DNA from: an uncultured Planctomycetaceae bacterium
Lineage (GTDB): Bacteria; Planctomycetota; Planctomycetia; Pirellulales; Pirellulaceae
NCBI GenBank assembly: GCA_937862885.1
Contig: CALMEE010000121.1
Coordinates: 66,373-130,372 of the forward strand
Reading direction: 5' to 3'
Length of the DNA stretch: 64,000 nucleotides
Shown in pieces: positions 21,133 to 56,975 of this stretch (the stretch's first letter is position 1; the number at the start of each line of letters is the position of its first letter). The position numbers and the translations under genes were made by a program. The notes under the pieces were generated by a model. That model did no database searches, was not told the origin of the DNA, and saw only the letters and a list, made by a program, of their open reading frames with translations.

Positions 21133-24100
21133 ACATTCTAATTGGCAGCGAGTCGAAGAGACGTTTTTGAGGCTCCTTGACTTCCCTCCAGAATCGCGTC
21201 GCGAGAAGCTGAACGAACTATGTGGCGACGACTCTCTCTTGGCGCACGAAATCTCTTCGCTGCTCGATGCCTACGATGCCTCCGATGGATTTCTCGAACA
21301 GAGTTCGTTGGGAATCGAATCACTCGTCGACGAATTACTGACCGAATGGCAAATTCCGGCTCAAGGTTTGGAAACCAAGCGTGGACAATCAACTTCCGAC
21401 CTTCAGATCGAAACGGACGTCAAGGCGTCGAACCTTGACATCAATCTGCGACTTGGAGACCACACCCGACAACTGCCTGATTTGGCCGATTTGCAACGGC
21501 TCATCAGTTTGGTGCGCGCTGATTATCGGTTGGACCAACTAATCGGACGCGGGGGCAGCGGGCTTGTCGTGCGGGGCTACGACCAGCGATTGCAACGCAC
21601 GGTGGCGATCAAGTTCCTCAACCCAGACCTAACCAAAGGCAAATTTGCGAACTGGCTCGAAAGCGAGGGACGAGCCGCCGCCGGATTGACGCACGATCAT
21701 ATAGTGCCGATCTACGAAGTGTCGCCGCCCGAATCACCGCTGTCGTTTCTGGTGATGAAGTGGATCGATGGCCCGACGCTCCGCGATTGGGTCAACGAGC
21801 ACGGCCCTCTCGAACACCGCCAAGCCGCAGAATTAACTCGCCAATTGGCCGAAGCGGTGGAACACGCTCACCGTTGTCAAACGGTGCATGGCGATATCAA
21901 ACCGATCAACGTATTGTTGCAAGTTCGAGAAGACTCAAGCACAAAACCACTTTGGCGGTCGATGCTAACCGATTTCGGTTTGGCCAGGAGGATCGACAGA
22001 CAATCCACCCCAATGGCCGGATTTGTCGGCACACCGGCTTATGCCAGTCCTGAACAACTCTTGAATATGGAACCTCCATCGGTCGCCAGCGACGTGTACA
22101 GTTTGGGAGCCACGCTGTACGAGCTTCTGTGCGGCGCACCGCCCTATCGCGGATCCCCCCAAGCGGTCATTCAACAGATGATCGACCACGACCCGGTTTT
22201 GCTTCGTTCGCTCGAGCGGACAATTCCCGCCGATCTGGAGAGTATTTGCTTCAAGGCCCTGTCGCGATCCCCCAGTCAACGTTATCGAACAGCGGGAGAT
22301 TTTGCCGCTGATTTGCAGCGGTTCCTCGACGGGCATCCGGTGGAGGCTCGGACGGTGGGCCCAATCCGCCGGTTTTGGATGGCCGTGCGCCGCCGCCCGT
22401 TGGTCAGCGGATTAATGGCCACCATTGCGGTTGTCATGCTCGTGGGCATCATCGCAAATTCGATCCAAGCCCGCATTGCACGCCATCAGCGGGACATCGC
22501 TGTGGAAGCTCGCCAAGCGGAATCCGAGCAGCGGCAAAAGGCCGAGCAGAACGAACAAGAAGCGATTCGAATGGCTGAGTTGGAAACCGAGGCCCGCCAG
22601 ATCGCCGAGCAAAGAACTGAGGAAACTCGCACGGTCCTCGAATTCGTCGAACAACATATCATCGCCGCTGCCCGTCCCACCAATCAAGAAGGTGGCTTGG
22701 GAAACCAAGTAACTTTGCGAGAGGCTATCGAATCGGCGGAGCATTTTTTTGAAACGGGTTTCTCCGATCTGCCGATCGTGGAGGCCCGTTTACGCATGAC
22801 GTTGGGCACCTCGTTTTTGTATTTGGGGCAGTTAGAAAAAGCGAAAAAGCACCACGAACTGGCGCACCAGATTTTTACCGATCAACTCGGAGCGGAGCAT
22901 GCAACGACGTTATTGGCAGAAAACTATTTGACCAACTGTTATTTTGCTCTGGGAGAATATGGCCGAGCCCGAGAGATGTACGCCGCCACGCTCGCAAAAC
23001 GTGAGCGAGTACTTGGTGCAACCCACAAACAGACGCTCGAAAGTCGCAACAACTTGGCCAACTGCTATTTTCATTTGGGACAAATTGAACAGGCTGTCGC
23101 CCTGAACGAGAAGACGCTGCAATTGCGGCGCGAGAGTTTAGGCCCCGACCATCCGGATACGCTCGAATCGGAAGGCAACTTGGCACTTGATTATGTCGAA
23201 TTGGGGCGTGCCGACGAAGCGTTTGAATTGATGTCGCGAGTCAGCGAGACGCTGCGCGAGCAACTGGGTCCAGAACACCCGAAAGTGTTGATGTCCCAAA
23301 GAAATGTGGCGTTTATCAACATCAGGCGAGGACAATTGGAGGAAGCACTCAAGCAGTATTTGGAACTTCACGAACTCGAAAAGCAGCACCTGGATGCCGA
23401 TCATCCAGACGCGTTGCAAACGATCGATCACATCGGAGTGATTTATGGCTTCTTGCGACGATTCGATGAAGCACTACCGTGGGCTGATCTGGCATTTCAG
23501 AAAAAACGATCCAAGCTCGGCGCACAACATGCCGAAACTCTTCGCGCGATGATGAACTTGGCGGGAACCTATTTACAATCCGAAAAATTTGAAGAGGCGT
23601 TTTCGATCTATCAGGAACTACGAACGCTGTACGCCGATCACCCGGATCTCGGACCGGATCCGCCGACCGGGGTGTTGTACGGAGCGGCAACGGCTGGCTT
23701 GCGCGTGGGAAACGGCTCAGAAGCCATCAAGTTGATTGATGAGTGTTTAGACCGGGCTAAAAGCGACCCCGAATATTTGCGAGTTGCCCCTGATTTTATC
23801 AATCTGCGGGTGCAACATTTCAGTGGTCAAGGCGATCTGGACGAATGCAAAAACTCGGCCGAAATTTTCGAGTCCCTGGGGCTCTCGTCGATTGAACATC
23901 TGTTGATCGCGGCGCGGTTAAGGGTCGTAGTAGCTGGATTGTCGCAGTTTGACGATCTATCGGCAGAACCCCCACCGGATTTAGACTCGCGGATACTCAC
24001 CGACACCAACGCCGATCTAGCCATTACCCACATACGCGCCGCCATCGAACGAGGACTTTCCAATCCGCAACAACTACTTCAAGACCCGATCCTCAAAGCG

Positions 24101-24148
24101 ATCGCACAGCATCCTGACCTCATCGCGCTCATTGGCAACGATGACTAA
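21113..24148 (+). CDS. Ser/Thr protein kinase with an N-terminal sigma-associated region, one TM helix, a coiled coil and C-terminal TPR repeats
   Basis: Kinase subdomains LIGRGGSGLVVRGYD...VAIKFL (Lys), HRCQTVHGDIKPINVLL, DFGLAR and GTPAYASPEQ. TM helix LVSGLMATIAVVMLVGIIANSI. Multiple TPR-like units (NLANCYFHLGQ, LALDYVELGR and others). Confidence 0.85.
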   Translation: MSQPSSEHSNWQRVEETFLRLLDFPPESRREKLNELCGDDSLLAHEISSLLDAYDASDGFLEQSSLGIESLVDELLTEWQIPAQGLETKRGQSTSDLQIETDVKASNLDINLRLGDHTRQLPDLADLQRLISLVRADYRLDQLIGRGGSGLVVRGYDQRLQRTVAIKFLNPDLTKGKFANWLESEGRAAAGLTHDHIVPIYEVSPPESPLSFLVMKWIDGPTLRDWVNEHGPLEHRQAAELTRQLAEAVEHAHRCQTVHGDIKPINVLLQVREDSSTKPLWRSMLTDFGLARRIDRQSTPMAGFVGTPAYASPEQLLNMEPPSVASDVYSLGATLYELLCGAPPYRGSPQAVIQQMIDHDPVLLRSLERTIPADLESICFKALSRSPSQRYRTAGDFAADLQRFLDGHPVEARTVGPIRRFWMAVRRRPLVSGLMATIAVVMLVGIIANSIQARIARHQRDIAVEARQAESEQRQKAEQNEQEAIRMAELETEARQIAEQRTEETRTVLEFVEQHIIAAARPTNQEGGLGNQVTLREAIESAEHFFETGFSDLPIVEARLRMTLGTSFLYLGQLEKAKKHHELAHQIFTDQLGAEHATTLLAENYLTNCYFALGEYGRAREMYAATLAKRERVLGATHKQTLESRNNLANCYFHLGQIEQAVALNEKTLQLRRESLGPDHPDTLESEGNLALDYVELGRADEAFELMSRVSETLREQLGPEHPKVLMSQRNVAFINIRRGQLEEALKQYLELHELEKQHLDADHPDALQTIDHIGVIYGFLRRFDEALPWADLAFQKKRSKLGAQHAETLRAMMNLAGTYLQSEKFEEAFSIYQELRTLYADHPDLGPDPPTGVLYGAATAGLRVGNGSEAIKLIDECLDRAKSDPEYLRVAPDFINLRVQHFSGQGDLDECKNSAEIFESLGLSSIEHLLIAARLRVVVAGLSQFDDLSAEPPPDLDSRILTDTNADLAITHIRAAIERGLSNPQQLLQDPILKAIAQHPDLIALIGNDD

Positions 24149-44991: not shown

Positions 44992-45861
44992 ATGCACGAC
45001 TTGGATTCTCGTCCGATAAAGGTTATCCAGTTTACGCCTCAGTCTGCACTGCGCAGTCCCGTGCAACTCTTCGGAGACATTCTGCAAAATGTGCGAGATG
45101 GGTGGGCGCTGGCGTGGCGCATGTTCCTGCGTAACCTCAAGGGACAATACCGTCAGACCTTTCTGGGCCTGTTTTGGGTTTTCCTGCCCCCCTTAGCAAA
45201 TACTGCCTTGTGGGTGCTTCTTGCCTCACGTGGCGTGACGAACTTTGCCGAAACGATTGGGGCGAAGTACACCATCTACGTGCTGACGGGAATGGTTCTT
45301 TGGCAAGCATTTATCGACGGCTTGTTGGCACCTCTAAATTCCATTCAAAGCAACCGCAGCATGTTGAGCAAACTCCGTTTCCCGCGAGAGTCAATCTTAA
45401 TGGTAGGTGCATTGGAGGTACTGTTCGACTTGGCTGTTCGCACGCTCGTGCTGATACCGTTGTTACTTTGGTTCGGCATGACATACTCCAACTGGCTGTT
45501 TGTCGTACCAGTGGCTGCGTTGGCCCTAGTATGTTTGAGCATCGGTTTGGGCTGCCTTATGATGCCTTGGGGCATGCTATATCAAGATATTGGCAAGCTA
45601 TTAACCGTCGCCACACCGTTGTGGATGATTCTGACACAAATCGTTTATCCACCACCGCAAGATTGGGCGAGCAATCCATTGAATTGGGCGAATCCTGCAA
45701 GTCCACTTCTGCTTTGGGCTCGCGACATCTTGGTGGTAGGCCAATCCGATCATTTATGGGCGGCCATCGTTTATGCTACGTTGGCCGTTCCAATATTTAT
45801 TGCTGGATTGGTCGTTTATCGAGTCGCCATTCCGGTCCTGGTAGAGCGAGTTTCGAACTGA
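44992..45861 (+). CDS. ABC-2 type transporter permease (Wzm/KpsM-like polysaccharide exporter)
   Basis: Characteristic N-terminus FLRNLKGQYRQTFLGLFWVFLPPLANTALWVL followed by six TM helices. The start is assigned to the in-frame ATG at 44992 (the track start at 44908 is possible). Confidence 0.75.
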   Translation: MHDLDSRPIKVIQFTPQSALRSPVQLFGDILQNVRDGWALAWRMFLRNLKGQYRQTFLGLFWVFLPPLANTALWVLLASRGVTNFAETIGAKYTIYVLTGMVLWQAFIDGLLAPLNSIQSNRSMLSKLRFPRESILMVGALEVLFDLAVRTLVLIPLLLWFGMTYSNWLFVVPVAALALVCLSIGLGCLMMPWGMLYQDIGKLLTVATPLWMILTQIVYPPPQDWASNPLNWANPASPLLLWARDILVVGQSDHLWAAIVYATLAVPIFIAGLVVYRVAIPVLVERVSN

Positions 45862-45920
45862 CGCGTAAAATCTGCACATTACTTGTGGGTGATCGCAACA
45901 TTTTTTTCGCAAAAATTAAC

Positions 45921-47165
45921 ATGATTCCCGATCCTGTCGCACAGGTTGAAAACGTCTCGAAAAAGTATTGTCGCAATCTCAAGCGATCATTACGCTATGG
46001 CGTGTTCGACTTGTTTAACGAATTAATGGGGAGCAACGGCGAACAGCGGGGCAAGTTGCGCGGCGGCGAGTTTTTTGCCGTCGATCACGTCAGCTTCGAT
46101 GTTCGGCCGGGTGAATGCGTCGCGTTATTGGGCCCAAATGGTGCAGGTAAAAGTACACTGTTAAAAATGTTGGCGGGTTTGTTCAAGCCCGACACCGGTA
46201 AAATCACGATACGCGGAAGACTGGGTGCGCTGATCGAACTGGGGACGGGCTTCAATCCGATTCTCACGGGACGTGAAAACGTGTTTGTCAACGGCACGTT
46301 GCTCGGTTTGAAAAAGCGGGAAATTGAGCAGCGGTTTGCTGAGATCGTCGAGTTTTCCGAATTGGCCGACGTGATCGACGAACCAGTCCGCACGTACAGC
46401 ACCGGGATGCGGCTACGGCTGGGCTTTTCAGTCGCGGCCCATTTGCGACCGCAGTTGTTGTTGATCGACGAAGTATTGGCGGTGGGTGACGTTCGGTTTC
46501 GTATGAAGTGCTTCAAACATATTCTGAACTTGATTGAAGAAGGCCTGGCACTAATCATTGTCTCGCATGCAGTAAGCCAACTCAATCGAGTTTGCAACAG
46601 GGCCATCGTGATGTTCGACCATCATTTGGTCTACGATGGCGACTTTCCACAAGGAGCGGCACTCTATGAAAAGCTTTTGTTAGAGACCAATGTTCAGAAG
46701 CAACGAGTAACGGGCACGGGTGAAGCCGAGATTGGTGACATCCGCGTTGCCAATCTCGTTGGCGATGACAAAATTAATACCGGCGAGACATTGCGCGCTG
46801 AAATCGATTTCGCTTGCACGTCCTCTGTGGAAGATGCCCGCGTGCGCGTCTTCATCGAATCGCCTGTAGGCGGCGTGTTGGGCGGATTCTCAACACGCTT
46901 GCACGATTTTCGTTTTAGTTTGGAACCTCCAGGCCAGACGCTGGTCGTTGAAATGCCTGAACTTCCCTTACTTATGGGCGCTTACACACTCAACGTCGCT
47001 CTTTACGGGAAGGCCCTTGATCATTTTATTGACCGTCGCCAGCCGGGAGCCGCTTTTCAAGTGGTAGGCCCCCAAACCAACAGCTTCGCCATGGGTGAAG
47101 ATGGCATGGTTCGCTTTGCACACAAATGGGGTTTGCAGCCCCTAATGAAATCGTACGACTCATAA
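45921..47165 (+). CDS. ABC transporter ATP-binding protein (Wzt/KpsT-like) with a C-terminal substrate-binding extension
   Basis: Walker A LLGPNGAGKSTLLKML, Q-loop, signature YSTGMRLRLGFS, Walker B LLLIDEVLAVGD and H-loop IIVSHA. About 160 extra C-terminal residues are present, as in Wzt polymer-recognition domains. The real start is ATG 45921; the track's long ORF from 45174 is read-through of the upstream gene in another frame. Confidence 0.85.
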   Translation: MIPDPVAQVENVSKKYCRNLKRSLRYGVFDLFNELMGSNGEQRGKLRGGEFFAVDHVSFDVRPGECVALLGPNGAGKSTLLKMLAGLFKPDTGKITIRGRLGALIELGTGFNPILTGRENVFVNGTLLGLKKREIEQRFAEIVEFSELADVIDEPVRTYSTGMRLRLGFSVAAHLRPQLLLIDEVLAVGDVRFRMKCFKHILNLIEEGLALIIVSHAVSQLNRVCNRAIVMFDHHLVYDGDFPQGAALYEKLLLETNVQKQRVTGTGEAEIGDIRVANLVGDDKINTGETLRAEIDFACTSSVEDARVRVFIESPVGGVLGGFSTRLHDFRFSLEPPGQTLVVEMPELPLLMGAYTLNVALYGKALDHFIDRRQPGAAFQVVGPQTNSFAMGEDGMVRFAHKWGLQPLMKSYDS

Positions 47166-47182
47166 CCACACGGGCACCCGCG

Positions 47183-48451
47183 ATGAACAATTGCAAAATT
47201 ATCACCGTGACTGGAGTCCATAAGTCAGGAAACAGCTGGCTCAACGCCTTGTTATTCGATCTATTCAACCCCAATCAAAATACTTCGCTGAGCAGACTCT
47301 TTTGCTTGCATGATATCTTATATGCCAAGTCCCAGCAAACAGCTGCACTCAATTCGTTTCCGCTGGCACAACTCGCGGAAAGACTCTTGGCACCAACGCC
47401 TCAGAATCGGTTCGAACTGCAACAAGTACCGGAAGCCGCCCTTGATTTGTTGGCGAAAACAATTCGCTGGAACCAAGCCCGACGCAACCGAGAGTATCAG
47501 GAACTTGACAACATTCGCCAATTGCTGACGGAATACTGTTTCGCGGCAACGCACGAACAAGAGGCACCAGAGGTTTGCTTTATACCCTCAAAGCACATGC
47601 CTTTACAAACATTGCGGCGACAGTTTCCTAGCTTTCAGGTGATTTGGCTAATTCGAGATCCACGCGACGCATTGGTATCTTATTTCTATCACGCGATGGG
47701 TGCGCTTGCTGAACACTATTTGGCCGATTTCATCGAACTTGACGGTGCCCGGCAGTCATGGCGTCTACGTAATAACTGGCGAGCCGAGTTCATACAACAT
47801 CGCATGCGAGAACAGCTCAACTATTACGGTCGATGCCATGATAACAATGCAGTCGGACGCTTGAGTGGTGGTTATGAATTTTTGATCAAATACGAACAAC
47901 TCTTGGATAGAACGACTGAGATCCTTCAACAGTTATTTGAGTGGGTCGGACGACCCGTTGATTCCAGACGCGTTGAAGCGGCGGTCGAGAAGTATCGATT
48001 TGACAAACTTACGGGTTCAGCCGACGAGAAGCCAGATTCGTTTGTTCGCAAAGGAATTGCTGGCGAATGGAGGGCGTACTTCCAACAAGCTGACACTTCG
48101 CTCTTCGGCCAACACTACTTGGACCTATTGGTAGATCTGGGCTATGAAAACGATAATGATTGGCTGCGGAATTTGCCGAACACGGCAACGCACGAATTCG
48201 CCCTCGATCGCTTCCGGCCGCGCTCGTCAGCCGTCTATGCTTCACGGGAAATTTGGATTAATGACGAGACGTTGCAACGCGATTACCCTCGACCCTTCGA
48301 TTTTTCGGGTGAGGCCACCTATTTCGACTTCTTATTGAACTGCCAGCACGAAACGATGCGGGCTTGGTTTGAAAAAACGGGCCAGTGCTTTGATGTAAAC
48401 CGGCAAATCGAGGAACGGCGTAGCTCCGCTGATGAATTGCTAGGTTATTGA
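47183..48451 (+). CDS. Sulfotransferase-family protein
   Basis: 5'-PSB motif VTGVHKSGNSWLNALL (compare PKSGTTW) and 3'-PB motif IWLIRDPRDALVSYFYH. The start ATG at 47183 is 18 nt after the Wzt stop. Confidence 0.65.
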   Translation: MNNCKIITVTGVHKSGNSWLNALLFDLFNPNQNTSLSRLFCLHDILYAKSQQTAALNSFPLAQLAERLLAPTPQNRFELQQVPEAALDLLAKTIRWNQARRNREYQELDNIRQLLTEYCFAATHEQEAPEVCFIPSKHMPLQTLRRQFPSFQVIWLIRDPRDALVSYFYHAMGALAEHYLADFIELDGARQSWRLRNNWRAEFIQHRMREQLNYYGRCHDNNAVGRLSGGYEFLIKYEQLLDRTTEILQQLFEWVGRPVDSRRVEAAVEKYRFDKLTGSADEKPDSFVRKGIAGEWRAYFQQADTSLFGQHYLDLLVDLGYENDNDWLRNLPNTATHEFALDRFRPRSSAVYASREIWINDETLQRDYPRPFDFSGEATYFDFLLNCQHETMRAWFEKTGQCFDVNRQIEERRSSADELLGY

Positions 48452-48481: not shown

Positions 48482-49351
48482 TCAAATCCGTTCGGCCACG
48501 CGGAGCCGGCTGCTACGTGCACGGGGGTTGGCAGCAATTTCTGCTTCCGATGGGCGAATCGGTTTGCTGTGAAGACTTCGCAACAAAGGACTCTCGCGAA
48601 ACGTCGTTTTGACCAACCGATCCTCTAAAGAGTGAAAACTGATGATGGCAATTCGACCTCCTACCTCCAATCTCTCACTCAGGCGTCGAATGGCAACTTC
48701 AATCCATTTCAATTCTTCATTCACGGCGATCCGAAACGCTTGAAATGTACGTGTGGCAGGATCGATCGAATGGTTTTTCGCCCTTGGCACAACACGCCGC
48801 ACAAGTCCGGCAATTTCATCAGCTCGTTTTAGAGGCCCCTTCCGCCGATGTTCGACAAATGTTTTCGCCACGCGCCGGCTATAACGCTCTTCGCCAAAAT
48901 GAAAAATCAAGTCCGCCAGATGCTTCTCGCTCAAGCGATTTAACAACCGCCACGCTGGCTCTCCCTTTGACGTGTCAAATCGCAGGTCGAAATCACCCTG
49001 ACTGTGGTAGCTGAATCCGCGCCCCTCGTCCTGCAACTGATCGCTCGACAGCCCTAGGTCCAGCAAAACCGACGATACTTTGGTGACGCCAAACGCATCC
49101 AGTATTTCCGGGATGTCTGCGAAATTTCCCTGCGCAAGTTTAACGGGCAGGTCCTGCAGATTTTGTGCCGCGTTCTTTATCGCTAATTCGTCTCGGTCTA
49201 CGCCAATCACATATCCGCCCGGCATGACGTGCAGCGCCAGCAACCGCGTATGCCCGCCTCCCCCCAGCGTCCCATCGACGACGATTTGTCCCGCTTGGGG
49301 ATTCAGACTTTCAAGAACTTCTTTGACTAAAACAGGAACATGCACAGTCAT
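48482..49351 (-). CDS. rsmH: 16S rRNA (cytosine1402-N4)-methyltransferase RsmH (MraW)
   Basis: VHVPVLVKEVLESL...VDGTLGGGGHT...GDFDLRFD...SFHSLEDRLVK are RsmH signatures. The start is placed at MTVHVPVL. Confidence 0.85.
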   Translation of the reverse strand: MTVHVPVLVKEVLESLNPQAGQIVVDGTLGGGGHTRLLALHVMPGGYVIGVDRDELAIKNAAQNLQDLPVKLAQGNFADIPEILDAFGVTKVSSVLLDLGLSSDQLQDEGRGFSYHSQGDFDLRFDTSKGEPAWRLLNRLSEKHLADLIFHFGEERYSRRVAKTFVEHRRKGPLKRADEIAGLVRRVVPRAKNHSIDPATRTFQAFRIAVNEELKWIEVAIRRLSERLEVGGRIAIISFHSLEDRLVKTTFRESPLLRSLHSKPIRPSEAEIAANPRARSSRLRVAERI

Positions 49352-49568
49352 CTTGTTTGCGCGACACCTATCGATTTCACCATATTCAAACTCAAAGAAG
49401 TATATCAAGGGCGCGGTAACTCCCCCAGTCTGGCGCCGGTCGCGAAATTACGAGTTCATATTGACGATATGCTCCAAACGGACTAAACTAAAAAGTGTAG
49501 CACGTGCTAAACATTTTACCCAGCCTGAATGGCTTTGGTTGTCCAGTTCAACGACTAAGGGGATTACG

Positions 49569-50696
49569 GTGTCGAAAGGATGCTCTATTCAACGCTTTCG
49601 GTTATTTCGGGACTGTGTGCGGGACCGCTTCGGTACGTCGTTCCTTGCCAAGAATTTCGCTTGGACCATCCTATTTGGTTTTTTGTTTCTGTCGGGATGT
49701 GATACCCGACCGTCACGTGAATCTCTTACTCCAAATGAGGACGCGGGGAATCGGCTAAAAATTGTTGCTACGGTAGGGATGGTGGCAGATATCGTGCGCG
49801 AAGTTGGCGGCGAGCGGGTGCATGTCATTCAGCTGATCGGTTCTAGTATCGACCCCCATCTCTACAGAGCAACGCGTGATGATGTTCAAGAGATCATGCG
49901 TGCCGACATTGTTTTCTACTCAGGGTTACGGCTGGAAGGTCGCATGGGCGATACGTTGGCTAAACTAATGGATCGGAAGAAAATTGTGGGTGTGACTGAA
50001 GCCTTGGACCATTCGCTTTTGCTGACAGTTGACGAAAGCAGAAAACAATTTGACCCTCATGTATGGATGAATGTGTCGCTCTGGTCGAAATGTGTGGACG
50101 TAATTGTGAAAACACTGTCTGAAGTTGATGCCACCGGGGCCGAGTCATTCGCGCAAAACGGAAAGCGATATCAGGAACAGCTTACCCAACTACATGAATA
50201 CGGGTTGCGTTGTTTGCAGTCGATTCCTGTCAAACAGCGGCTGCTGATCACATCACATGATGCCTTTGGTTATATGCAGCAAGCCTATGGCTTGGAAGTC
50301 CAAGGTATCCAGGGCATTTCCACGGAATCCGAAGCCAGTTTAAAGCGAGTAAATCAATTGGTGGATCTGTTGTTAAAGCGGCAGATTCCGGCCGTCTTTG
50401 TTGAGACCAGCGTATCTCACAAAGGGGTCGATGCGTTGGTGGAAGGTGTGCGGGCGAAAGGTGGCCTAATCGAAGTCTATGGCAAACTTTTCTCGGACGC
50501 CATGGGGCCGAAGGGAACGTATGAGGGAACCTATATCGGCATGCTCGATCACAATTTCACGAATATCACACGTGCCTTGGGTGGTGATGCTCCGGCAACT
50601 GGATTTCAGGGCAAACTGACGACAGCAGCTGAAAAGAATGGAGCTTCAACTAGGAACACAACATCACCAGCAGCGCAATCATCAACCGCACATTGA
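49569..50696 (+). CDS. Metal (Zn/Mn/Fe) ABC transporter substrate-binding lipoprotein (cluster A-I, ZnuA/TroA/MntC-like)
   Basis: LKIVATVGMVADIVREVGGERVHV...DPHLY...DPHVWMN...ITSHDAFGYM are the metal-coordinating His/Asp segments. Lipobox FLFLSGC. The start is uncertain; I propose GTG 49569 because the track's long N-terminal extension is antisense to rsmH. Confidence 0.8.
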   Translation: MSKGCSIQRFRLFRDCVRDRFGTSFLAKNFAWTILFGFLFLSGCDTRPSRESLTPNEDAGNRLKIVATVGMVADIVREVGGERVHVIQLIGSSIDPHLYRATRDDVQEIMRADIVFYSGLRLEGRMGDTLAKLMDRKKIVGVTEALDHSLLLTVDESRKQFDPHVWMNVSLWSKCVDVIVKTLSEVDATGAESFAQNGKRYQEQLTQLHEYGLRCLQSIPVKQRLLITSHDAFGYMQQAYGLEVQGIQGISTESEASLKRVNQLVDLLLKRQIPAVFVETSVSHKGVDALVEGVRAKGGLIEVYGKLFSDAMGPKGTYEGTYIGMLDHNFTNITRALGGDAPATGFQGKLTTAAEKNGASTRNTTSPAAQSSTAH

Positions 50697-50732
50697 CATT
50701 TCAGTACCAATAGTCCATGAGGCATAACGTTA

Positions 50733-51545
50733 ATGAAACAGACATTCGGACAAAATTCCAGCAACGCGACTAGCGTGTCCAGTCTGATTCCACTTGCGGT
50801 TCAAGATTTAACCGTCGCCTATCATCGCAAACCCGTAATCTGGGATTGTCAATTTGAAATTCCCCCTGGGGCGTTGGTGGGAATCATCGGACCTAATGGA
50901 GCTGGGAAAAGCACGCTTCTGAAAGCGATCATGGACTTGGTCCCCAAAGCATCTGGTGTCATCCAGGTGTTTGGAAACTCGTTCCGCCGCAACCGGCATC
51001 GCGTCGGCTACGTGCCGCAACGCGAAAGTGTCGACTGGGATTTCCCAGTAGATGCGTTAGGAGTTGTAACGATGGGCCTGTATCACAAGATCGGCTGGTT
51101 CCGGCCCGTGCGAAAGAAGCATCGCGATTTGGCGATGCAAGCGTTGGATCGAGTCGGCATCGCGGATCTGGCACATCGCCAGATCGATCAACTCTCCGGG
51201 GGACAACAACAACGCACTTTCTTAGCCAGAGCGTTAGTCCAGGACGCAGATTTGTATCTGATGGACGAGCCGTTAGCGTCCGTTGACGCTGCCACAGAGC
51301 GTGCCATTATGGATTTGCTTAACCAACTCAAACTCCAAGGCAAGACGTCTGTGGTTGTCCACCACGATTTGCAAACCGTCCCTTCCTACTTTGACTATGT
51401 TGTGCTTATCAATATGCGAATTGTGGCCCATGGTCCGGTGGATGAGGTGTATACGCCTGAAAATCTCCGCAAGACCTATGGTGGTCGCCTTACGCTGCTT
51501 GATGAAGTCGCCGAAGCCATGCGTCGCCGCGAAAGGTCACTATGA
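50733..51545 (+). CDS. Metal ABC transporter ATP-binding protein (ZnuC/MntA/TroB-like)
   Basis: Walker A IIGPNGAGKSTLLKAI, signature LSGGQQQRTFLARAL and Walker B LYLMDEPLASVD. Confidence 0.85.
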   Translation: MKQTFGQNSSNATSVSSLIPLAVQDLTVAYHRKPVIWDCQFEIPPGALVGIIGPNGAGKSTLLKAIMDLVPKASGVIQVFGNSFRRNRHRVGYVPQRESVDWDFPVDALGVVTMGLYHKIGWFRPVRKKHRDLAMQALDRVGIADLAHRQIDQLSGGQQQRTFLARALVQDADLYLMDEPLASVDAATERAIMDLLNQLKLQGKTSVVVHHDLQTVPSYFDYVVLINMRIVAHGPVDEVYTPENLRKTYGGRLTLLDEVAEAMRRRERSL

Positions 51546-52978
51546 GTCTAATGGCGAACTGGAGTTGGAATGTGCAGAATCCGGAAGCAGATTGGTTAGC
51601 GTGGCTGTACGACTACAATTCACGTCTTGTGATTATCGGCGCGATCTTGTTGGGCGGGGCGGCCGGTACCATCGGCTGCTTCACACTTCTCAGAAAGCGT
51701 GCGTTATTGGGAGATGCCATCAGCCATGCAACACTCCCGGGAATTGCCATCGCCTTCATTCTGGCCAACCATTTTGGCTTCAGCGGGAAATCACCCGTTT
51801 GGTTGCTGCTTGGGGCAACCCTAGCAGGACTGCTCGGCATAGCAGCGATCCTAGCGATTCGCAAATTGACACGTCTTAAAGAAGACGCAGCGCTAGGAAT
51901 CGTCTTGAGCGTGTTCTTTGGTTTGGGAGTCGCCTTGCTTGGCATCGTTCAACAAATCGAGGGAGGAAATGCTGCTGGCCTTGAGTCCTATATCTATGGA
52001 AAAACGGCGGCGATGAGCCGGTTCGATGTGCAACTGATCGGAGTTGTCGGTCTGTTGGGGATTGCGGGTTGCATTTTGTTTTTCAAAGAAGCAAAGTTGT
52101 TGTGCTTCGACGAAGCGTTCGCTGCTTCGCGCGGGCTACCCACAACCTGGTTAGATGTCGGGCTCATGGCACTAGTCGTCAGCGTCACGATAGTCGGGTT
52201 ACAGGCTGTTGGCCTGATTCTGATCATCGCCCTGTTGGTCATTCCTGCCGCCGCCGCCCGCTTTTGGACGGACCAACTTGCAAGTATGTCATGCATTGCG
52301 GCGTTCATCGGTGCCGCAAGTGGTGGCATTGGTGCAATTATCAGTGCCACCTTCGCCCAAATGCCTTCTGGTCCGACCATTGTTCTGGTTTGCACATTGC
52401 TGTTTCTGCTCAGTATGACTTGGGGTGCAAAACGGGGAATCGCGATCCGCGCAATCCGACGGCAACGTTTCAATCGTTCGATCAGTCGCCAACATCTCCT
52501 CCGCGCAGTTTATGAACTGGGCGAAACAACAACCGGTTTGTCAGCTGCCAACGCTGAACTAGGAGGTGGATTCAGTCAAGATTTGCCGCGACAATCTGTT
52601 TCGTTTGATGAGGTACTGCGCAAACGCAGTTGGACGAAACACCAACTAAGCCGAGTAGCGCGCTGGGCTCAGCGGCAAGAGTTGATTGAACTGATTGGCG
52701 ACGAAATTAGGTTGACGAAACGCGGAATGCTCAAGGCCAAAGAGATTACCCGACAGCATCGCTTGTGGGAACTTTACCTAATCACTCATGCCGAGGTAGC
52801 TACGACTCGCGTCGATCGTGATGCTGACGCCATTGAACATGTGCTAGAGCCAGAGGTCATCGCTGAATTAGAACAGCTTTTGCAAGGAACGCCTGGCGAA
52901 CTGCCAGACAGCCCGCATCTTTTGGAGGTCGTGTCCGCTGATGTAACCGACACTACCGTCAATGAGCGAGGGTCTTAG
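51542..52978 (+). CDS. Metal ABC transporter permease fused to a C-terminal DtxR/MntR-like metalloregulator domain (YtgC-YtgR-like)
   Basis: About 300 aa of ZnuB/TroC-type TM domain, then ~170 aa with LIELIGDEIRLTKRGMLKAKEITRQHRLWELYL...AEVATTRVDRDADAIEHVLEPEVIAELEQLL, matching the DtxR-family winged-helix C-terminus, the RxHRLxExxL helix and the metal-site/dimerisation region. The start overlaps the ATPase stop (ATGA). Confidence 0.75.
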   Translation: MSLMANWSWNVQNPEADWLAWLYDYNSRLVIIGAILLGGAAGTIGCFTLLRKRALLGDAISHATLPGIAIAFILANHFGFSGKSPVWLLLGATLAGLLGIAAILAIRKLTRLKEDAALGIVLSVFFGLGVALLGIVQQIEGGNAAGLESYIYGKTAAMSRFDVQLIGVVGLLGIAGCILFFKEAKLLCFDEAFAASRGLPTTWLDVGLMALVVSVTIVGLQAVGLILIIALLVIPAAAARFWTDQLASMSCIAAFIGAASGGIGAIISATFAQMPSGPTIVLVCTLLFLLSMTWGAKRGIAIRAIRRQRFNRSISRQHLLRAVYELGETTTGLSAANAELGGGFSQDLPRQSVSFDEVLRKRSWTKHQLSRVARWAQRQELIELIGDEIRLTKRGMLKAKEITRQHRLWELYLITHAEVATTRVDRDADAIEHVLEPEVIAELEQLLQGTPGELPDSPHLLEVVSADVTDTTVNERGS

Positions 52979-54302
52979 CATGTTGAGTTCGCTGGCTTGG
53001 GATTGGAGCATCGACGGTTGGATCATCTTGACAGGTATTTTGTGTGCGGTCTCGGCGTCGCTCTTGGGTAATTTCTTGGTGCTGCGCCGCATGAGCATGT
53101 TGGGAGACGCCATCAGTCACGCGGTGCTACCCGGATTGGTCGCGGCATTTTTTATATCACACAATCCGCAGAGTCTTACGATGTTCGTCGGAGCGGCTCT
53201 CGTTGGAGCACTCACGGCATTATTTACCGATTGGATTCGCAAGGCTGGCCAAGTCGATGAAGGAGCTTCGATTGGCGTTGTGTTTACATCGTTGTTTGCC
53301 CTAGGTCTGCTGATGATTCATTGGGTCGCCGATCGTGTTGACCTCGACCCGAACTGCGTGTTGTTCGGTTCGATCGAAATGACACCCTTTGACCAATTGA
53401 CGATTTTAGGAGCCGAGGTCCCCAAAACCGTCGTAGTGCTCAGCGTCGTTTCACTTCTCAATTGCGGTTTCATCGTCGTGTTTTATAAAGAACTGAAGAT
53501 ATCATCATTTGACCCTGCCAGTGCGACAGCTGGAGGATTCAATGCGACCCTCATTCATTATGTGCATATGATTTTGGTCGCCGTCACGGCGGTGGCAGCC
53601 TTCGAATCTGTGGGGAGTATCCTCGTCGTCGCCATGTTTATCGTGCCACCAGCCGCAGCCTACCTCTTAACCGATCGCCTGGCATACATGATCATACTGA
53701 GCGTGCTCTTGGCCAGCGTTTCCGCTGTGCTGGGGCATATCGGGGCCATTTCGGTCCCCGGCTGGTTCGGTTTTCGCAGCACGACCACGGCTGGGATGAT
53801 GGCTTTGTCTGCTGGTCTTGTGTTCTTTCTGGCAGCCATGTTTAGCCCAAAACATGGTTACGTCGTCAAAGTCTGGCAACGCCGATTATTGAATTGGCAA
53901 ATTTTGTCCGATGACTTGGTCGCGTTATTGTATCGGATTCAGGCGGGGGACCGCGTGATCGCTCCACGCATTCGCGAATTAGCAAAATTGCTCTTATCCG
54001 ACACCTATTCGCTTTGGCTGGTTAGTAACTGGCTACGTTGGAAAGGGCAAGTGATTATTGAGACCGGCCATTTGCGATTGACCGAAGATGGTGTATCGAA
54101 GGCTAGAAAACTGGTTCGCTCACATCGTTTGTGGGAACAGTATTTGGCTGCATTTGCCAGCCTGGATACCGAACGAATCCACGACAAGGCTGAACAACTC
54201 GAGCATTTCACTAATCGCGAATTGCGGGATCAACTTGCCTCTGCCACCGATCTTCCCGACGTCGATCCTCACGGTTCATTGATACCTCCGGAAGAGGAAT
54301 GA
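52962..54302 (+). CDS. Second metal ABC transporter permease, also fused to a DtxR-like C-terminal domain
   Basis: The TM domain is followed by LVSNWLRWKGQVIIETGHLRLTEDGVSKARKLVRSHRLWEQYLAAFASLDTERIHDKAEQLEHFTNRELRDQL...DPHGSLIPP, which is DtxR-like. An alternative start lies at 52980. Confidence 0.75.
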   Translation: MSEGLSMLSSLAWDWSIDGWIILTGILCAVSASLLGNFLVLRRMSMLGDAISHAVLPGLVAAFFISHNPQSLTMFVGAALVGALTALFTDWIRKAGQVDEGASIGVVFTSLFALGLLMIHWVADRVDLDPNCVLFGSIEMTPFDQLTILGAEVPKTVVVLSVVSLLNCGFIVVFYKELKISSFDPASATAGGFNATLIHYVHMILVAVTAVAAFESVGSILVVAMFIVPPAAAYLLTDRLAYMIILSVLLASVSAVLGHIGAISVPGWFGFRSTTTAGMMALSAGLVFFLAAMFSPKHGYVVKVWQRRLLNWQILSDDLVALLYRIQAGDRVIAPRIRELAKLLLSDTYSLWLVSNWLRWKGQVIIETGHLRLTEDGVSKARKLVRSHRLWEQYLAAFASLDTERIHDKAEQLEHFTNRELRDQLASATDLPDVDPHGSLIPPEEE

Positions 54303-54630
54303 ATAGACACCCGGCAGCGAACCCGTCCTTTGTCTCAAGGTCGAGATTCTCGTTACGATCACGAGAACAAGATTCCAACCGACGAGCTTTGCCACGCGAA
54401 TACCTGTTGCAGCATGATGCTGCCTGGAAGTCATCGCTTAGCAGCAAGTTTTAGGCGCGTCTGAATTGGCATGCCCCACGATGCCTAGCTCGACCCGAAT
54501 TTCCGCCACGCACTGCATGTTTTCGAAAAGTGATAGCACTCGAACGCTCGTTGGAGCTTGCACGTAATTAGTGTTTGTGGAAATCCAAAAACTGGTTAGC
54601 TTGTAGAATCAAAACTTGACACCAACGCCT

Positions 54631-55722
54631 ATGACCATCGTCGCCGTAAGGACTCTCATGAACTTCTCAACTCGAAATTTTTGGTTTGCAATAGCAGGAT
54701 TCCCCTATTGGGTGGCAATTTTGCTTGTGTTCAGTTTCGTTTTCTTTGACCGAATGGGCAATGCACAACAAACGCAAGGCCAATCGGTTTCGGCTTCACA
54801 AGCAATTCCTAATGCCGAAGCGCGCGCTGCGGAAAAGGTGATGTCGATTCTGAAGTCAATCGACCCGTATCATCCCAAAGCTGAATTGTCGGGCGAGTTT
54901 GCCGTATTTGGCTCGACCACCATGAACTCGTTAGCCAACCAATGGGTGCAAGGATTTAACAAATTTCACGTGAATGCCAATTGCGAACTGTCGACGCTCA
55001 AAGGCGAGGACGCGCTCAAACACCTCGTCAGTCAGCCGAGCGGTGTTGTCCTCTTATCCCGCCCGGTCAAGCCAGAAGAGTTTGAATGGCTGAAAGGACA
55101 AGGTTTGAAGGACCCGATGCAATTTGAGGTTGGGCGAGAAGCACTTGCTGTATTCGTGCATGATTCGAATCCCTTGTCAGCCGTGAATGCTGAGCAGTTT
55201 ATGACAGTATTTACCACCGATGGTGGTGATGCGATCACCTGGGGGGCACTGGGTCTAGTCGATGCGTGGGCAGCGAAGCCCGTGCATTTGATTAGCCGCG
55301 GTGATAAGAGCAACGTCCAAACCTTCTTGCGCGATAATCTGTTGGTTGGCAAAACTTTGCGATCGGGAAAAACCGTGCATGACTCGAATGCTGATCTCTT
55401 AGCGGCAATCGCCGCAGATCCAACCGCGATTGGGATTAGTTGTCTTCGCGCTTCGATGTCACAATGCAAACCATTGGCCTTGACTGATGGCCATACGACA
55501 ATCCCCTGCGATGATTATTCGGTATTGACGGGCGAATATCCGCTTGTTCGGCCGATTATGTTGGTGATCGATGCTGGACAAACGGGCGAGCAAAGCCAAC
55601 TTGCCAAGGAATTTGTCAAGTTTGCCATTTGCCAAGAAGGGCAGCGAAAGACGATACTGGCAGGCTTTTTCCCAATTGATGTTCCTCTATCGCGCGCTCA
55701 ATTGAAATACCTAGATGAATAG
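54631..55722 (+). CDS. PstS-like (PBP type II) substrate-binding protein, orphan
   Basis: N-terminal TM/signal FWFAIAGFPYWVAILLVFSFVFF. FAVFGSTTMNSLANQWVQGFNK resembles the phosphate-binding-protein N-terminal motif. No pstCAB genes are adjacent. The track start is TTG 54616. Confidence 0.55.
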   Translation: MTIVAVRTLMNFSTRNFWFAIAGFPYWVAILLVFSFVFFDRMGNAQQTQGQSVSASQAIPNAEARAAEKVMSILKSIDPYHPKAELSGEFAVFGSTTMNSLANQWVQGFNKFHVNANCELSTLKGEDALKHLVSQPSGVVLLSRPVKPEEFEWLKGQGLKDPMQFEVGREALAVFVHDSNPLSAVNAEQFMTVFTTDGGDAITWGALGLVDAWAAKPVHLISRGDKSNVQTFLRDNLLVGKTLRSGKTVHDSNADLLAAIAADPTAIGISCLRASMSQCKPLALTDGHTTIPCDDYSVLTGEYPLVRPIMLVIDAGQTGEQSQLAKEFVKFAICQEGQRKTILAGFFPIDVPLSRAQLKYLDE

Positions 55723-55820
55723 TGCTGTTTTGTAAATGTTTCTCAAGGCAGTACGCGCTGCCACATTGTTTAAGCGTACAGGCGAATACACATCTTTTGT
55801 TAACTAGTTCGGTGGGTGCC

Positions 55821-56975
55821 ATGGAAAAGTATAGACAAGCTCGAATGTTTCGGCGGTTATTGGTTGTAAGTTTTGCGGCAATCGGGTTTTTTACGATCGG
55901 ACAGGAAATTACCCGAGCACAAGAGTTTCGTTTCGACCAAGGGCAAACGCGCTGGAATCAACCGCAATGGTTTGACAACTCCTCGCAATCAAAAGCGTGG
56001 CGGCTAGGTGATGTTGATCTTCAAAACACGAACACCGGTGTGCGCGTGCTTGATATCGATCCTAATTCCACCGCCAGTCGGTCCGGGTTGCGTAAAGGTG
56101 ACATGATAATTACGGTCGGTGGTTCCCAAGTTGGTTTTGTCGAGGGCCGCCTTTACGACTTAGCTGAAGAAGCTAACCGCCGCGCCACTAGCCAAGGTCG
56201 CGTCGCGATGTTGGTGCAAGACGGCAACAACGGCCGCCTTGGCAATGTCAACGTACAATTGGAAAGCAGCCAGGCATTGCTAACGGGGACGATTGTCGGT
56301 TTGGATCGACTCAACATGCCTCCCAATGCGACCATCTCGATCGAGATCGTTAACGCCTCGCGCCCACATTTTGCGGTTCGCAATGGGCACGTGGTGTTGA
56401 ATCCTGGCGGCAAAGCAACGATTCCATTCACGATTGCCTATGACCCGGCATATGTTTACGCACAAGATGTTTATCATGTAAAATCGCAGGTTTCAGTTGG
56501 CAGCGAACCCATTTATTATTCGCAAGACAATTATCGAGTGATTACACAGGGCAATCCCTCAACCGTTCAACTGCAATTTGTGTCGATGACCAATGTTGCC
56601 CGGGTTCGGTATGCGAACAGCAATCAGTCGTTGCCTGTGGCGGATCGCGACTTCGACACCATCAGCCGATTAATTAGCACCCATTATCAACGTTATTTGC
56701 GACGTGAACCGAATTATCTTGAAGTTGCTGCGCTGTGGAGCGAACCAGATATCAAGTCGCGCCTTGATTCGCTGCCGGTCGATTTGATGGCGACGCAAGA
56801 ATACTACGACGCATCTGGCAACAATGTCGGTTCATGGGTGTCTCGTGTGTTTGAGGAAGTGGTTGGTCGTCGGCCATCGGTGGCTGAGTTACAGCAGTGG
56901 CAACAGCGGCTCGCTGATCTCCGCTACTCTCGCACGACCATGCTCAGCCAACTCTTTGCGCAGGCGCGGCGTTAA
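55821..56975 (+). CDS. Secreted PDZ-domain protein (hypothetical)
   Basis: ATG at 55821 (MEKYRQARMFRRLLVVSFAAIGFFTIG, a signal peptide). PDZ-like VRVLDIDPNSTASRSGLRKGDMIITVGG. The track start is GTG 55722. Confidence 0.55.
   Translation: MEKYRQARMFRRLLVVSFAAIGFFTIGQEITRAQEFRFDQGQTRWNQPQWFDNSSQSKAWRLGDVDLQNTNTGVRVLDIDPNSTASRSGLRKGDMIITVGGSQVGFVEGRLYDLAEEANRRATSQGRVAMLVQDGNNGRLGNVNVQLESSQALLTGTIVGLDRLNMPPNATISIEIVNASRPHFAVRNGHVVLNPGGKATIPFTIAYDPAYVYAQDVYHVKSQVSVGSEPIYYSQDNYRVITQGNPSTVQLQFVSMTNVARVRYANSNQSLPVADRDFDTISRLISTHYQRYLRREPNYLEVAALWSEPDIKSRLDSLPVDLMATQEYYDASGNNVGSWVSRVFEEVVGRRPSVAELQQWQQRLADLRYSRTTMLSQLFAQARR

What the first reader, a model, noticed from the sequence alone, without database searches (positions are those of the whole stretch)
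49569..54302. Metal ABC importer in which both permeases carry C-terminal DtxR-like repressor domains
The operon has an SBP, an ATPase, a permease and a second permease. Each permease has a ~150-170-aa cytoplasmic extension with the DtxR/MntR signature helix (RQHRLWELYL / RSHRLWEQYL), a preceding winged-helix-like segment and a downstream His/Glu-rich metal-site region. A single such fusion (YtgC-YtgR) is known in Chlamydia, where the repressor domain is cleaved off to regulate transcription. Two fused permeases in one operon, in a planctomycete, extend that theme across the PVC superphylum. It raises the question of whether both domains are released, whether they heterodimerise and which promoter they control.
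Basis: partly seen in the sequence, partly recalled or inferred. Interest (0 to 1): 0.65.

Follow-up and report, generated by a model that had tools for sequence, protein, structure and literature searches.

The report
Metal importer with sensor-fused permeases
A planctomycete metal-uptake pump really does have a repressor-like metal-sensing module fused to both membrane subunits, but the DNA switch in front of the operon matches an ordinary free-standing MntR repressor, so the fused modules more likely sense metal for the pump itself.

Summary
Window 49617-54302 (+) encodes a TroA-like binding protein, an ATPase and two ABC-3 permeases. Each permease ends in a two-domain DtxR/MntR-like module with its metal ligands intact. 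Both fusions are in frame in 74 of 81 related planctomycete loci, so they are not artefacts.

The interpretation needs revising. Permease-repressor fusions were already reported in 11 phyla. I did find a conserved palindrome at the promoter (window 49496-49511). However, the identical palindrome sits between divergent mntH and stand-alone mntR genes in other bacteria. A canonical soluble MntR with the same recognition helix is encoded divergently next to this operon in 24 of 63 related loci. Within the same genomes, the DNA-reading part of MntR is 71% conserved, against 39% and 32% in the fused tails. The tails' metal/dimerisation domains stay at 75% and 62%.

My best reading is that soluble MntR controls transcription, and the two fused modules act as cytoplasmic metal sensors on the transporter, probably by trans-inhibition. 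YtgR-like cleavage and DNA binding is not excluded. This is a new variant of a known kind and is moderately interesting.

The parts
49461..49489 (+). Sigma-70-type promoter: TTGACG (-35), 17-nt spacer, TAAACT (-10)
   Evidence: This is the only promoter-like site upstream of the SBP gene. The same layout, CTTGAC-N17-GATAGACT followed about 13 bp later by the box, is conserved in 14 related loci.
49489..49518 (.). MntR box. It is a 30-bp inverted repeat, TAAAAAGTGTAGCAC/GTGCTAAACATTTTA, with its core TGTAGCACGTGCTAAA at 49496-49511. It lies directly after the -10 hexamer, over the likely transcription start.
   Evidence: Inverted repeat. The strict motif T[GT]TAGC-N4-GCTA[CA]A occurs 69 times in 865 kb of related loci, and 68 of those lie within 350 bp upstream of the SBP gene. 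It is the only exact match in the window. The identical consensus palindrome lies between mntH and soluble mntR genes elsewhere.
49617..50696 (+). TroA-like cluster A-I metal-binding lipoprotein (SBP). It has an LSGC lipobox at residues 25-28. An alternative in-frame GTG start lies at 49569.
   Evidence: PF01297, E 9e-71. TroA, E 3e-77, with the DPH / DPH / SHD / SDA motifs aligned. NCBI gene call. Lipobox.
50733..51545 (+). ABC transporter ATPase (TroB/MntA-like)
   Evidence: PF00005, E 1e-29. Best NCBIfam matches are Mn and Mn/Fe transporter ATPases, all below the equivalog cut-offs.
51542..52426 (+). Permease 1, transmembrane domain (ABC-3). NCBI's start is 51551.
   Evidence: PF00950, E 9e-62. 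The family profile matches the PsaC-type Mn permease 7kyo/7kyp at E 1e-39.
52427..52978 (+). Permease 1 tail. It comprises a basic linker plus a two-domain DtxR/MntR-like module. Helix 1 (RQHLLRAVYEL) is at nt 52487-52519. The putative recognition helix (RSWTKHQLSRVARWAQRQ) is at 52625-52678. The signature helix (RQHRLWELYL) is at 52751-52780. The metal site (VDRDADAIEH) is at 52811-52840. Ligand-position residues are H318, H406, E410, D425, D429, E432 and H433.
   Evidence: PF02742, E 2e-12. Profile to SloR residues 16-119, E 4e-10. Residues invariant in 65 homologues. Coordinates. AF2 model with pLDDT 79; DtxR family gives the top fold hits but with a poor global fit.
52962..53843 (+). Permease 2, transmembrane domain (ABC-3). 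NCBI's start is 52980, directly after the stop codon of permease 1.
   Evidence: PF00950, E 2e-45. Profile to 7kyp at E 1e-40. Gene call.
53844..54302 (+). Permease 2 tail. It comprises a basic linker plus a two-domain DtxR/MntR-like module. Helix 1 (DDLVALLYRI) is at nt 53910-53939. The helix-3 equivalent is at 53997-54047. The signature helix (RSHRLWEQYL) is at 54117-54146. The metal site (IHDKAEQLEH) is at 54177-54206. The DPHGSLIPP motif is at 54264-54290. Ligand-position residues are D317/D318, H388, E392, H407, E411, E414 and H415.
   Evidence: PF02742, E 2e-18. Profile to 5zr4 residues 3-132 at E 5e-18, and to SloR, DR2539 and ScaR. AF2 pLDDT 87; TM-score 0.75-0.87 to DR2539, IdeR and DtxR. 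Residues invariant in 61 homologues.

Best explanation
This is a TroABCD/MntABC-type importer for Mn (possibly also Zn or Fe). Its control works at two levels.

Level 1, transcription (strongly inferred): a canonical, free-standing MntR binds the palindromic MntR box that overlaps the promoter when cytoplasmic Mn2+ is high, and represses the operon. In this MAG the mntR gene is not within the 64-kb window.

Level 2, the protein itself (inferred): each of the two different permease subunits ends, about 20 residues after its last membrane helix, in a two-domain DtxR/MntR-like module. The metal-binding/dimerisation domain of each module is under strong constraint. Because both subunits carry one, every assembled transporter holds exactly two modules, which is the stoichiometry of a DtxR-type dimer. 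I propose that the two modules bind the imported metal in the cytoplasm and pair or tighten as a heterodimer. Through the helix that runs from the last membrane helix into the module's ligand-bearing first helix, they would then hold the transporter in an inactive state. This is trans-inhibition, a fast shut-off that complements the slower transcriptional control.

What is shown: gene content, domain identity, conserved ligands, conservation of the double fusion, the box, and the co-resident soluble MntR.

What is inferred: who binds the box, and everything about what the tails do.
For: 1. Domain identity and intact metal sites.
2. The double fusion is in frame in 74 of 81 loci across Pirellulaceae- and Planctomycetaceae-type genomes.
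3. The box: 68 of 69 strict matches in 865 kb lie just upstream of the SBP gene. It sits between -35 and -10, or just after -10.
4. The identical 20-bp palindrome lies between Nramp/mntH (17 loci) and stand-alone mntR (13 loci) in metagenomes. E. coli mntH has the same TAGC-N4-GCTA core.
5. A soluble MntR with the same recognition helix (VSHVT..R.V.RL..EG) is encoded divergently beside the operon in 24 of 63 loci, including all 11 assessable two-box loci plus L008. It is widespread in Planctomycetota, often apparently on the same contigs as the fused permeases, judging by matching contig lengths.
6. Within the same 23 genomes, mean pairwise identity is as follows. MntR: wHTH 71%, metal domain 73%. 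Tail 1: wHTH 39%, metal domain 75%. Tail 2: wHTH 32%, metal domain 62%. PF01325 is detected in every soluble MntR listed but in none of the fused permeases listed.
7. A soluble DtxR also coexists with a fused permease in the distant loci L087 and L088.
8. AF2 predicts one continuous helix from the linker into helix 1, at tail 2 residues 3-34 and tail 1 residues 2-43.
Against: 1. Both tails have kept a complete winged-helix fold over long evolutionary time. Helix 3 of tail 1 is basic, with R67 in 55/56, S68 in 48/56 and W69 in 56/56 loci. A pure allosteric sensor would not obviously need this.
2. In Chlamydia the homologous fused domain is cleaved off and represses transcription in reporter assays (PMC5599777, PMC6504234, PMC7755916).
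3. No soluble mntR was found in the 64-kb window or on the +/-10 kb of contig read. Its presence in this particular MAG is therefore assumed from relatives.
4. No TMD-attached trans-inhibition domain is known to me in ABC importers. In MetNI and ModBC the regulatory domains sit on the ATPase.
5. The ATPase dimer occupies the space under the permeases, so whether the two tails of one transporter can reach each other is untested.
6. The continuous helix comes from models of isolated tails.
Confidence: 0.45

Rival explanations
1. YtgR-like mechanism. One or both tails are cut from the permeases (or act while tethered), dimerise with metal, and repress transcription. Their target would be either this operon's box alongside MntR, or other targets with a different, faster-evolving operator.
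For: The architecture and gene order match YtgABCD, where cleavage and repression were shown experimentally. The full wHTH + dimerisation fold is retained. Helix 3 of tail 1 is conserved and has a mean net charge of +4.0. The MntR box also precedes a DUF1559 gene in 4 loci, so a trans-acting factor exists in these organisms.
Against: The box is fully explained by the co-resident canonical MntR, which has the matching recognition helix. The tails' helices are unlike it. Tail wHTH identity is 32-39% against 71% for MntR in the same genomes, although the box core is nearly invariant. The exposed helix-3 positions of tail 2 are variable. No second clade-wide motif was found upstream. Covariation between operator type and tail residues was confounded by phylogeny.
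Confidence: 0.3
2. The tails have a non-regulatory metal-handling or assembly role. They might receive the metal ion at the cytoplasmic exit and buffer it or pass it on, or they might simply stabilise the permease 1/permease 2 heterodimer.
For: The metal-ligand residues and the dimerisation domain are the most constrained parts. The modules are tethered close to the membrane by a short basic linker. There are two modules per transporter.
Against: DtxR-family sites are regulatory sensor sites, not known transfer sites. Most ABC-3 importers work without such a domain, and some relatives have an unfused partner permease. The retained winged helix would have no role.
Confidence: 0.12
3. The apparent fusions are frameshift or assembly artefacts that merge separate permease and repressor genes.
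For: The source is a metagenome-assembled genome.
Against: Both fusions are in frame in 74 of 81 independent loci, including isolate genomes such as Maioricimonas rarisocia, Roseimaritima sediminicola, Stieleria marina and Rhodopirellula baltica. The three exceptions that are not contig truncations are single-gene frameshifts in MAGs.
Confidence: 0.01

Closest known systems
YtgABCD with the YtgC-YtgR (YtgCR) fusion of Chlamydia trachomatis
   Same: The order SBP-ATPase-permease-permease is the same. An ABC-3 permease carries a C-terminal DtxR-like domain in one ORF.
   Different: In Chlamydia only YtgC is fused. Here both permeases are. [quoted passage not shown] Cleavage and DNA binding are untested here, and the tails' winged helices are relaxed. 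I could not obtain a YtgC sequence, so shared ancestry of the fusions is untested.
TroABCD-TroR of Treponema pallidum
   Same: The SBP is most similar to TroA (E 3e-77) and shares its metal-ligand motifs. The operon has two permease genes. The DtxR-type module has two domains with no SH3-like third domain. TroR's two-domain nature is from my own knowledge.
   Different: As I recall, TroR is a separate soluble protein encoded at the end of the tro operon. Here the modules are covalently attached to both permeases, and the likely transcriptional regulator is a different, MntR-type protein.
MntR (E. coli type) and its box upstream of mntH
   Same: The operator has the same TAGC-N4-GCTA core, the same spacing and A/T-rich flanks. 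The planctomycete soluble MntR has PF01325 + PF02742, and NCBI names it MntR.
   Different: This describes the regulator of the operon, not the fused tails. The tails are only 21-32% identical to the co-resident MntR over alignments of 30 residues or more, with marginal E-values. That the E. coli palindrome is the MntR site comes from my memory of Patzer and Hantke 2001.
Trans-inhibited ABC importers (MetNI, ModBC)
   Same: A substrate-binding regulatory domain is covalently attached to the transporter on the cytoplasmic side, two per complex. This is the mechanism I propose, by analogy only.
   Different: In MetNI and ModBC the regulatory domains are C-terminal extensions of the ATPase subunits and are not derived from transcription factors (my own knowledge). 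Here they are on the membrane subunits and derive from a wHTH repressor family. Inhibition is untested.

Membership tests
ABC-3 / cluster A-I metal ABC importer (TroABCD, MntABC, ZnuABC type) | Permeases match PF00950 above the gathering score | tested here: met
   209 bits and 156 bits against a cut-off of 20.1. Profiles match PsaC-type permeases at about E 1e-40.
ABC-3 / cluster A-I metal ABC importer (TroABCD, MntABC, ZnuABC type) | Co-operonic ZnuA/TroA-family binding protein and ABC ATPase | tested here: met
   PF01297 at E 9e-71 and TroA at E 3e-77. PF00005 at E 1e-29. The order is colinear in 66 related loci.
DtxR/MntR-family metalloregulator (domain level) | Metal-binding/dimerisation domain PF02742 | tested here: met
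   47.5 bits and 66.8 bits against a cut-off of 27.
DtxR/MntR-family metalloregulator (domain level) | N-terminal winged-helix DNA-binding domain (PF01325) | tested here: inconclusive
   Pfam PF01325 is not detected even at E<=10. Profile alignment does cover repressor residues 3-132 for tail 2 and 16-119 for tail 1. The tail 2 model has the fold. The tail 1 model fits poorly overall.
DtxR/MntR-family metalloregulator (domain level) | Conserved metal ligands at DtxR positions 10, 79, 83, 98, 102, 105 and 106 | tested here: met
   Tail 1 has H, H, E, D, D, E, H. Tail 2 has D, H, E, H, E, E, H. All are invariant in 65 and 61 homologues respectively. DtxR numbering is from memory but is consistent with the alignments.
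DtxR/MntR-family metalloregulator (function level) | Metal-dependent binding as a dimer to a palindromic operator | not testable with these tools
   Indirect evidence leans against a conserved operator for the tails. Their wHTH identity is 32-39% against 71% for MntR, and the only conserved palindrome is assignable to soluble MntR.
YtgC-YtgR-type permease-repressor fusion | ABC-3 permease and DtxR-like domain in one ORF within an SBP-ATPase-permease-permease operon | tested here: met
   It is met twice in this operon.
YtgC-YtgR-type permease-repressor fusion | Proteolytic release of the C-terminal domain | not testable with these tools
   Database proteins of about 165-174 aa that looked like free modules are truncated gene calls starting at a conserved Met in the last membrane helix or at contig ends.
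YtgC-YtgR-type permease-repressor fusion | The released domain represses its own operon's promoter | not testable with these tools
   A soluble MntR with the matching recognition helix accounts for the promoter box, so autoregulation by the tails is not required.
Trans-inhibited ABC importers (MetNI/ModBC type) | Regulatory domain located at the C-terminus of the ATPase subunit | tested here: not met
   The ATPase is 270 aa with no extension. The modules are on both permeases. I therefore do not file it as a member, only as a possible functional analogue.
Trans-inhibited ABC importers (MetNI/ModBC type) | Cytoplasmic substrate inhibits ATPase activity or transport through that domain | not testable with these tools
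   This requires transport or ATPase assays.

The most novel reading that the evidence does not exclude
A transcription-factor module has been turned into an allosteric gate. The two DtxR/MntR-derived modules on the two permeases form a metal-dependent heterodimer under the transporter. This dimer shuts import off directly when cytoplasmic Mn rises, working in parallel with a conventional soluble MntR. It would be the first trans-inhibition domain attached to the membrane subunits of an ABC importer. It would also suggest a second function for the widespread permease-DtxR fusions outside Chlamydia.
Probability: 0.4. Interest if true: 0.75.

Novelty: new variant of a known kind. Interest (0 to 1): 0.5.

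Why it matters
Permease-DtxR fusions were reported in many phyla in 2012, but in the literature I could search they have been studied only in Chlamydia, where the fused domain is treated as the cell's iron repressor. Planctomycetes offer a natural contrast. The module is present on both permeases, a canonical MntR and its box are also present, and the DNA-reading half of the fused modules is relaxed while the metal-sensing half is not.

This turns a vague question (what are these fusions for?) into a specific, testable one: do they gate the transporter? If they do, metal ABC importers gain a post-translational feedback mechanism. The Chlamydia case would then look like a specialisation in a reduced genome and not the general rule.

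The work also defines a cross-phylum MntR box (AATGTAGCC-NN-GGCTACATT) that can be used to predict Mn regulons.

Tried and rejected
1. Covariation between operator half-site type (TGTAGC vs TTTAGC) and tail residues. The strongest associations were scattered over the whole proteins, so they reflect clade and not DNA contacts. Inconclusive.
2. tblastn with the two tails to look for a third DtxR-like gene near the operon. It found none. This was a false negative: the tails are too diverged from MntR. tblastn with a real MntR found the divergent mntR genes.
3. Apparent stand-alone modules of about 130-175 aa in the representative search. They start inside the last membrane helix or sit at contig ends, so they are truncated calls.
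4. Search for a second conserved motif upstream after masking the box. Only promoter elements and a clade-limited -10 region (GATAGACT) appeared.
5. Rfam scan of the window for a leader riboswitch. No hits.
6. A one-mismatch box at 23746. It lies inside a 1011-aa ORF and is probably chance.
7. Papers I could not obtain: Thompson et al. 2012 and Patzer and Hantke 2001. The '11 phyla' statement is second-hand from PMC5599777. The E. coli box sequence was read from the genome instead.
8. Taxon names for distant fused relatives. None were available.
9. In the metagenome scan, the palindrome next to a molybdopterin oxidoreductase/Crp-like pair (L116, L150, L153) and a repeat in eukaryote-like contigs (L092 and others). 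Both were judged unrelated.

Full report
**What is there.** On the + strand the window carries four genes.
- A ZnuA/TroA-family binding lipoprotein.
- An ABC ATPase at 50733-51545.
- Two ABC-3 permeases, at 51542-52978 (478 aa) and 52962-54302 (446 aa).

The window comes from contig DAOLCC010000006.1 of a Pirellulaceae MAG, GCA_035324235.1. Permease 1 is 100% identical to an NCBI protein of that assembly. The binding protein is closest to Treponema pallidum TroA (E 3e-77), with the metal-ligand motifs aligned. The system is therefore Tro/Mnt-like, and its metal range (Mn, Zn, Fe) cannot be fixed from sequence.

**The extensions.** Both permeases pass Pfam's threshold for ABC-3 and for Fe_dep_repr_C, PF02742. 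Pfam does not detect the N-terminal DNA-binding domain PF01325 in either tail. Profiles built from 61-65 homologues do extend the homology across both DtxR domains.
- The permease 2 family aligns to residues 3-132 of 5zr4 (E 5e-18), and to SloR, DR2539, ScaR, DtxR and MntR.
- The permease 1 family aligns to SloR residues 16-119 (E 4e-10).

The AlphaFold model of tail 2 (pLDDT 87) superposes on two-domain DR2539, IdeR and DtxR at 1.8-2.1 A, TM-score 0.75-0.87. Tail 1 (pLDDT 79) also has DtxR-family proteins as its top fold hits, but with TM-score about 0.46. Neither tail has the SH3/FeoA third domain.

At the DtxR ligand positions 10, 79, 83, 98, 102, 105 and 106 (numbering from memory, consistent), tail 1 has H, H, E, D, D, E, H and tail 2 has D, H, E, H, E, E, H. 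All are invariant across homologues. The two tails are 32% identical to each other.

**Real and conserved.** A scan of species-representative genomes found at least 412 relatives of tail 2. All 80 fetched loci are from Planctomycetota-type assemblies. Including Maioricimonas rarisocia, both permeases are fused in frame in 74 of 81 loci. The exceptions are contig truncations or single frameshifts in MAGs. The artefact explanation is refuted.

More distant relatives are mixed.
- Double fusions: L086 and L089.
- A single fusion on the first or second permease: L084, L085 and L088.
- A single fused permease with a FeoA domain: L087.

L087 and L088 also encode a stand-alone three-domain DtxR in the same cluster.

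**What the literature says.** In Chlamydia, YtgR is the C-terminal domain of YtgC. It is cleaved off and represses the ytg and trpBA promoters (PMC5599777, PMC6504234, PMC7755916). The review also states that Thompson et al. 2012 found such fusions in 11 phyla. The fusion as such is therefore not new.

**The operator.** Upstream of the SBP gene there is a promoter-like TTGACG-N17-TAAACT at 49461-49489. It is followed directly by a 30-bp inverted repeat at 49489-49518.

Across related loci the motif T[GT]TAGC-N4-GCTA[CA]A occurs 69 times in 865 kb. Of these, 68 lie in the 350 bp upstream of the SBP gene, and 55 of 67 loci have at least one. The consensus is a symmetric AAATGTAGCC-NN-GGCTACATTT. 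In the two-site loci, the upstream copy fills the space between TTGACA and a TACAAT -10. In a clade that includes the window's layout, the box follows a conserved CTTGAC-N17-GATAGACT promoter.

**Who reads it.** At first this looked like support for autoregulation by the tails, but it is not.
- A metagenome scan for the exact palindrome returned 112 stretches, 80 of them held as loci. Only about a dozen were next to this type of operon.
- The largest other groups were Nramp/MntH genes (17 loci) and divergently transcribed stand-alone MntR genes with PF01325 + PF02742 (13 loci). OprB-type porin genes and DUF1559 genes also appeared.
- E. coli mntH is preceded by AAACATAGC-AAAG-GCTATGTTT, which has the same core and spacing.
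- Searching the planctomycete loci with one of these MntRs revealed a stand-alone mntR on the opposite strand directly upstream of the SBP gene in 24 of 63 loci with enough sequence. This includes all 11 assessable two-box loci, plus L008.
- Its recognition helix, VSHVT..R.V.RL..EG, matches that of the soluble MntRs that use the identical box in other bacteria. It is unlike either tail.
- This MntR is widespread in Planctomycetota, and many copies appear to share contigs with the fused permeases, judging by matching contig lengths.
- The window itself has no MntR homologue. Its upstream neighbour is rsmH.

**Constraint pattern.** In the 23 genomes that have all three proteins, mean pairwise identities are as follows.

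| Module | wHTH | Helix 3 | Metal/dimerisation domain |
|---|---|---|---|
| Soluble MntR | 71% | 75% | 73% |
| Tail 1 | 39% | 45% | 75% |
| Tail 2 | 32% | 34% | 62% |

The tails are thus held as tightly as a real regulator where metal is bound, and are relaxed where DNA would be read, even though the box core is almost invariant. Tail 1 still has a basic helix 3 with a conserved R-S-W motif. The exposed helix-3 positions of tail 2 vary. The tails are only marginally similar to the co-resident MntR, so they are an old, separate lineage.

**Interpretation.** Transcription of the operon is most simply explained by the soluble MntR and its box.

The fused modules form a second layer. Three observations point towards a metal sensor acting on the transporter itself, and I propose trans-inhibition by analogy with MetNI and ModBC:
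- A doubly fused heterodimeric transporter holds exactly two modules.
- The metal sites are conserved.
- AlphaFold predicts a continuous helix from the membrane linker into the ligand-bearing helix 1.

This part is inference, and I give it about 0.45. The YtgR-like alternative, cleavage followed by DNA binding perhaps at other targets, keeps about 0.3. The reasons are that the winged helix is retained, tail 1's helix 3 is conserved, and the Chlamydia precedent is experimental. A metal hand-off or assembly role gets about 0.12.

**Verdict.** This is a new variant of a known kind: a double fusion that coexists with a canonical MntR. It is moderately interesting because it makes the function of a widespread but little-studied fusion directly testable.

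Noticed in passing
L007, L010, L013-L015, L018, L021, L025, L026, L030, L031, L035, L037, L038, L041, L042, L051, L061, L063, L065, L066, L071, L078, L080 (about 1200-1770 on the - strand in each): A stand-alone mntR gene (about 135-170 aa, PF01325 + PF02742) is transcribed divergently from the SBP gene, with one or two MntR boxes in the shared intergenic region. In the window this position is occupied by rsmH (48482-49408, - strand), and no MntR homologue occurs in the 64 kb.
   Followed up: yes
L094 (374-393), L110 (6309-6328), L114 (1878-1897), L122 (958-977): The exact MntR box, inside a TTGACC-N17-TACATT promoter, precedes a DUF1559/N-methyl (PF07596 + PF07963) gene. As I recall, this family is mainly planctomycetal. 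It may be a further member of the MntR regulon in these organisms.
   Followed up: partly
L103, L104, L109, L118, L128, L130, L133, L142, L152, L155, L169 and others; also L112, L120, L151, L167: The same 20-bp palindrome, AATGTAGCC-NN-GGCTACATT, lies between Nramp/mntH and soluble mntR genes, and upstream of OprB-type outer-membrane porin genes, in soil and peat metagenome contigs. It is a cross-phylum MntR box that could be used to predict Mn regulons.
   Followed up: partly
L087 (376-7509) and L088 (3526-8028): In distant relatives, a soluble three-domain DtxR gene sits in the same cluster as a permease-DtxR fusion. In L087 there is also a second PF02742 + FeoA protein and FeoB. Coexistence of a soluble and a fused module therefore recurs outside planctomycetes.
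   Followed up: partly
L086 (5650-5988): A small gene with faint HTH_3/HTH_31 matches (112 aa) lies between the two fused permease genes of a distant double-fusion operon.
   Followed up: no
P0244, P0250, P0260, P0265, P0269, P0313, P0328, P0341, P0359: Public protein sets hold many proteins of about 163-174 aa that begin M[MI]AVA.G..., inside the last membrane helix of the permease. They look like truncated gene calls that start at a conserved Met. Internal translation initiation giving a one-helix-anchored module was not excluded.
   Followed up: partly
P0397, P0398: Two 249-aa planctomycete proteins named MntR score highest against the MntR profile and carry an unusually long list of HTH Pfam hits. 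They may be a duplicated or extended MntR.
   Followed up: no
window 45174-48451 (+): Just upstream of rsmH are an ABC-2/Wzt-type exporter ATPase (ABC_tran + Wzt_C) and a sulfotransferase gene. An ABC2_membrane gene lies before them in L001. This looks like a polysaccharide export or modification cluster.
   Followed up: no
window 54616-56975 (+) and beyond (L001 13108-21428): Downstream of the operon are a PBP_like_2 (phosphate-binding-like) gene, a YscW-like gene, and then a gene for a very large alpha-2-macroglobulin-like protein (MG2/A2M/bMG10, 2022 aa).
   Followed up: no
window 23746-23761: A one-mismatch match to the MntR box (TTTAGACCGGGCTAAA) lies inside a 1011-aa ORF (21113-24148). 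It is probably chance.
   Followed up: partly
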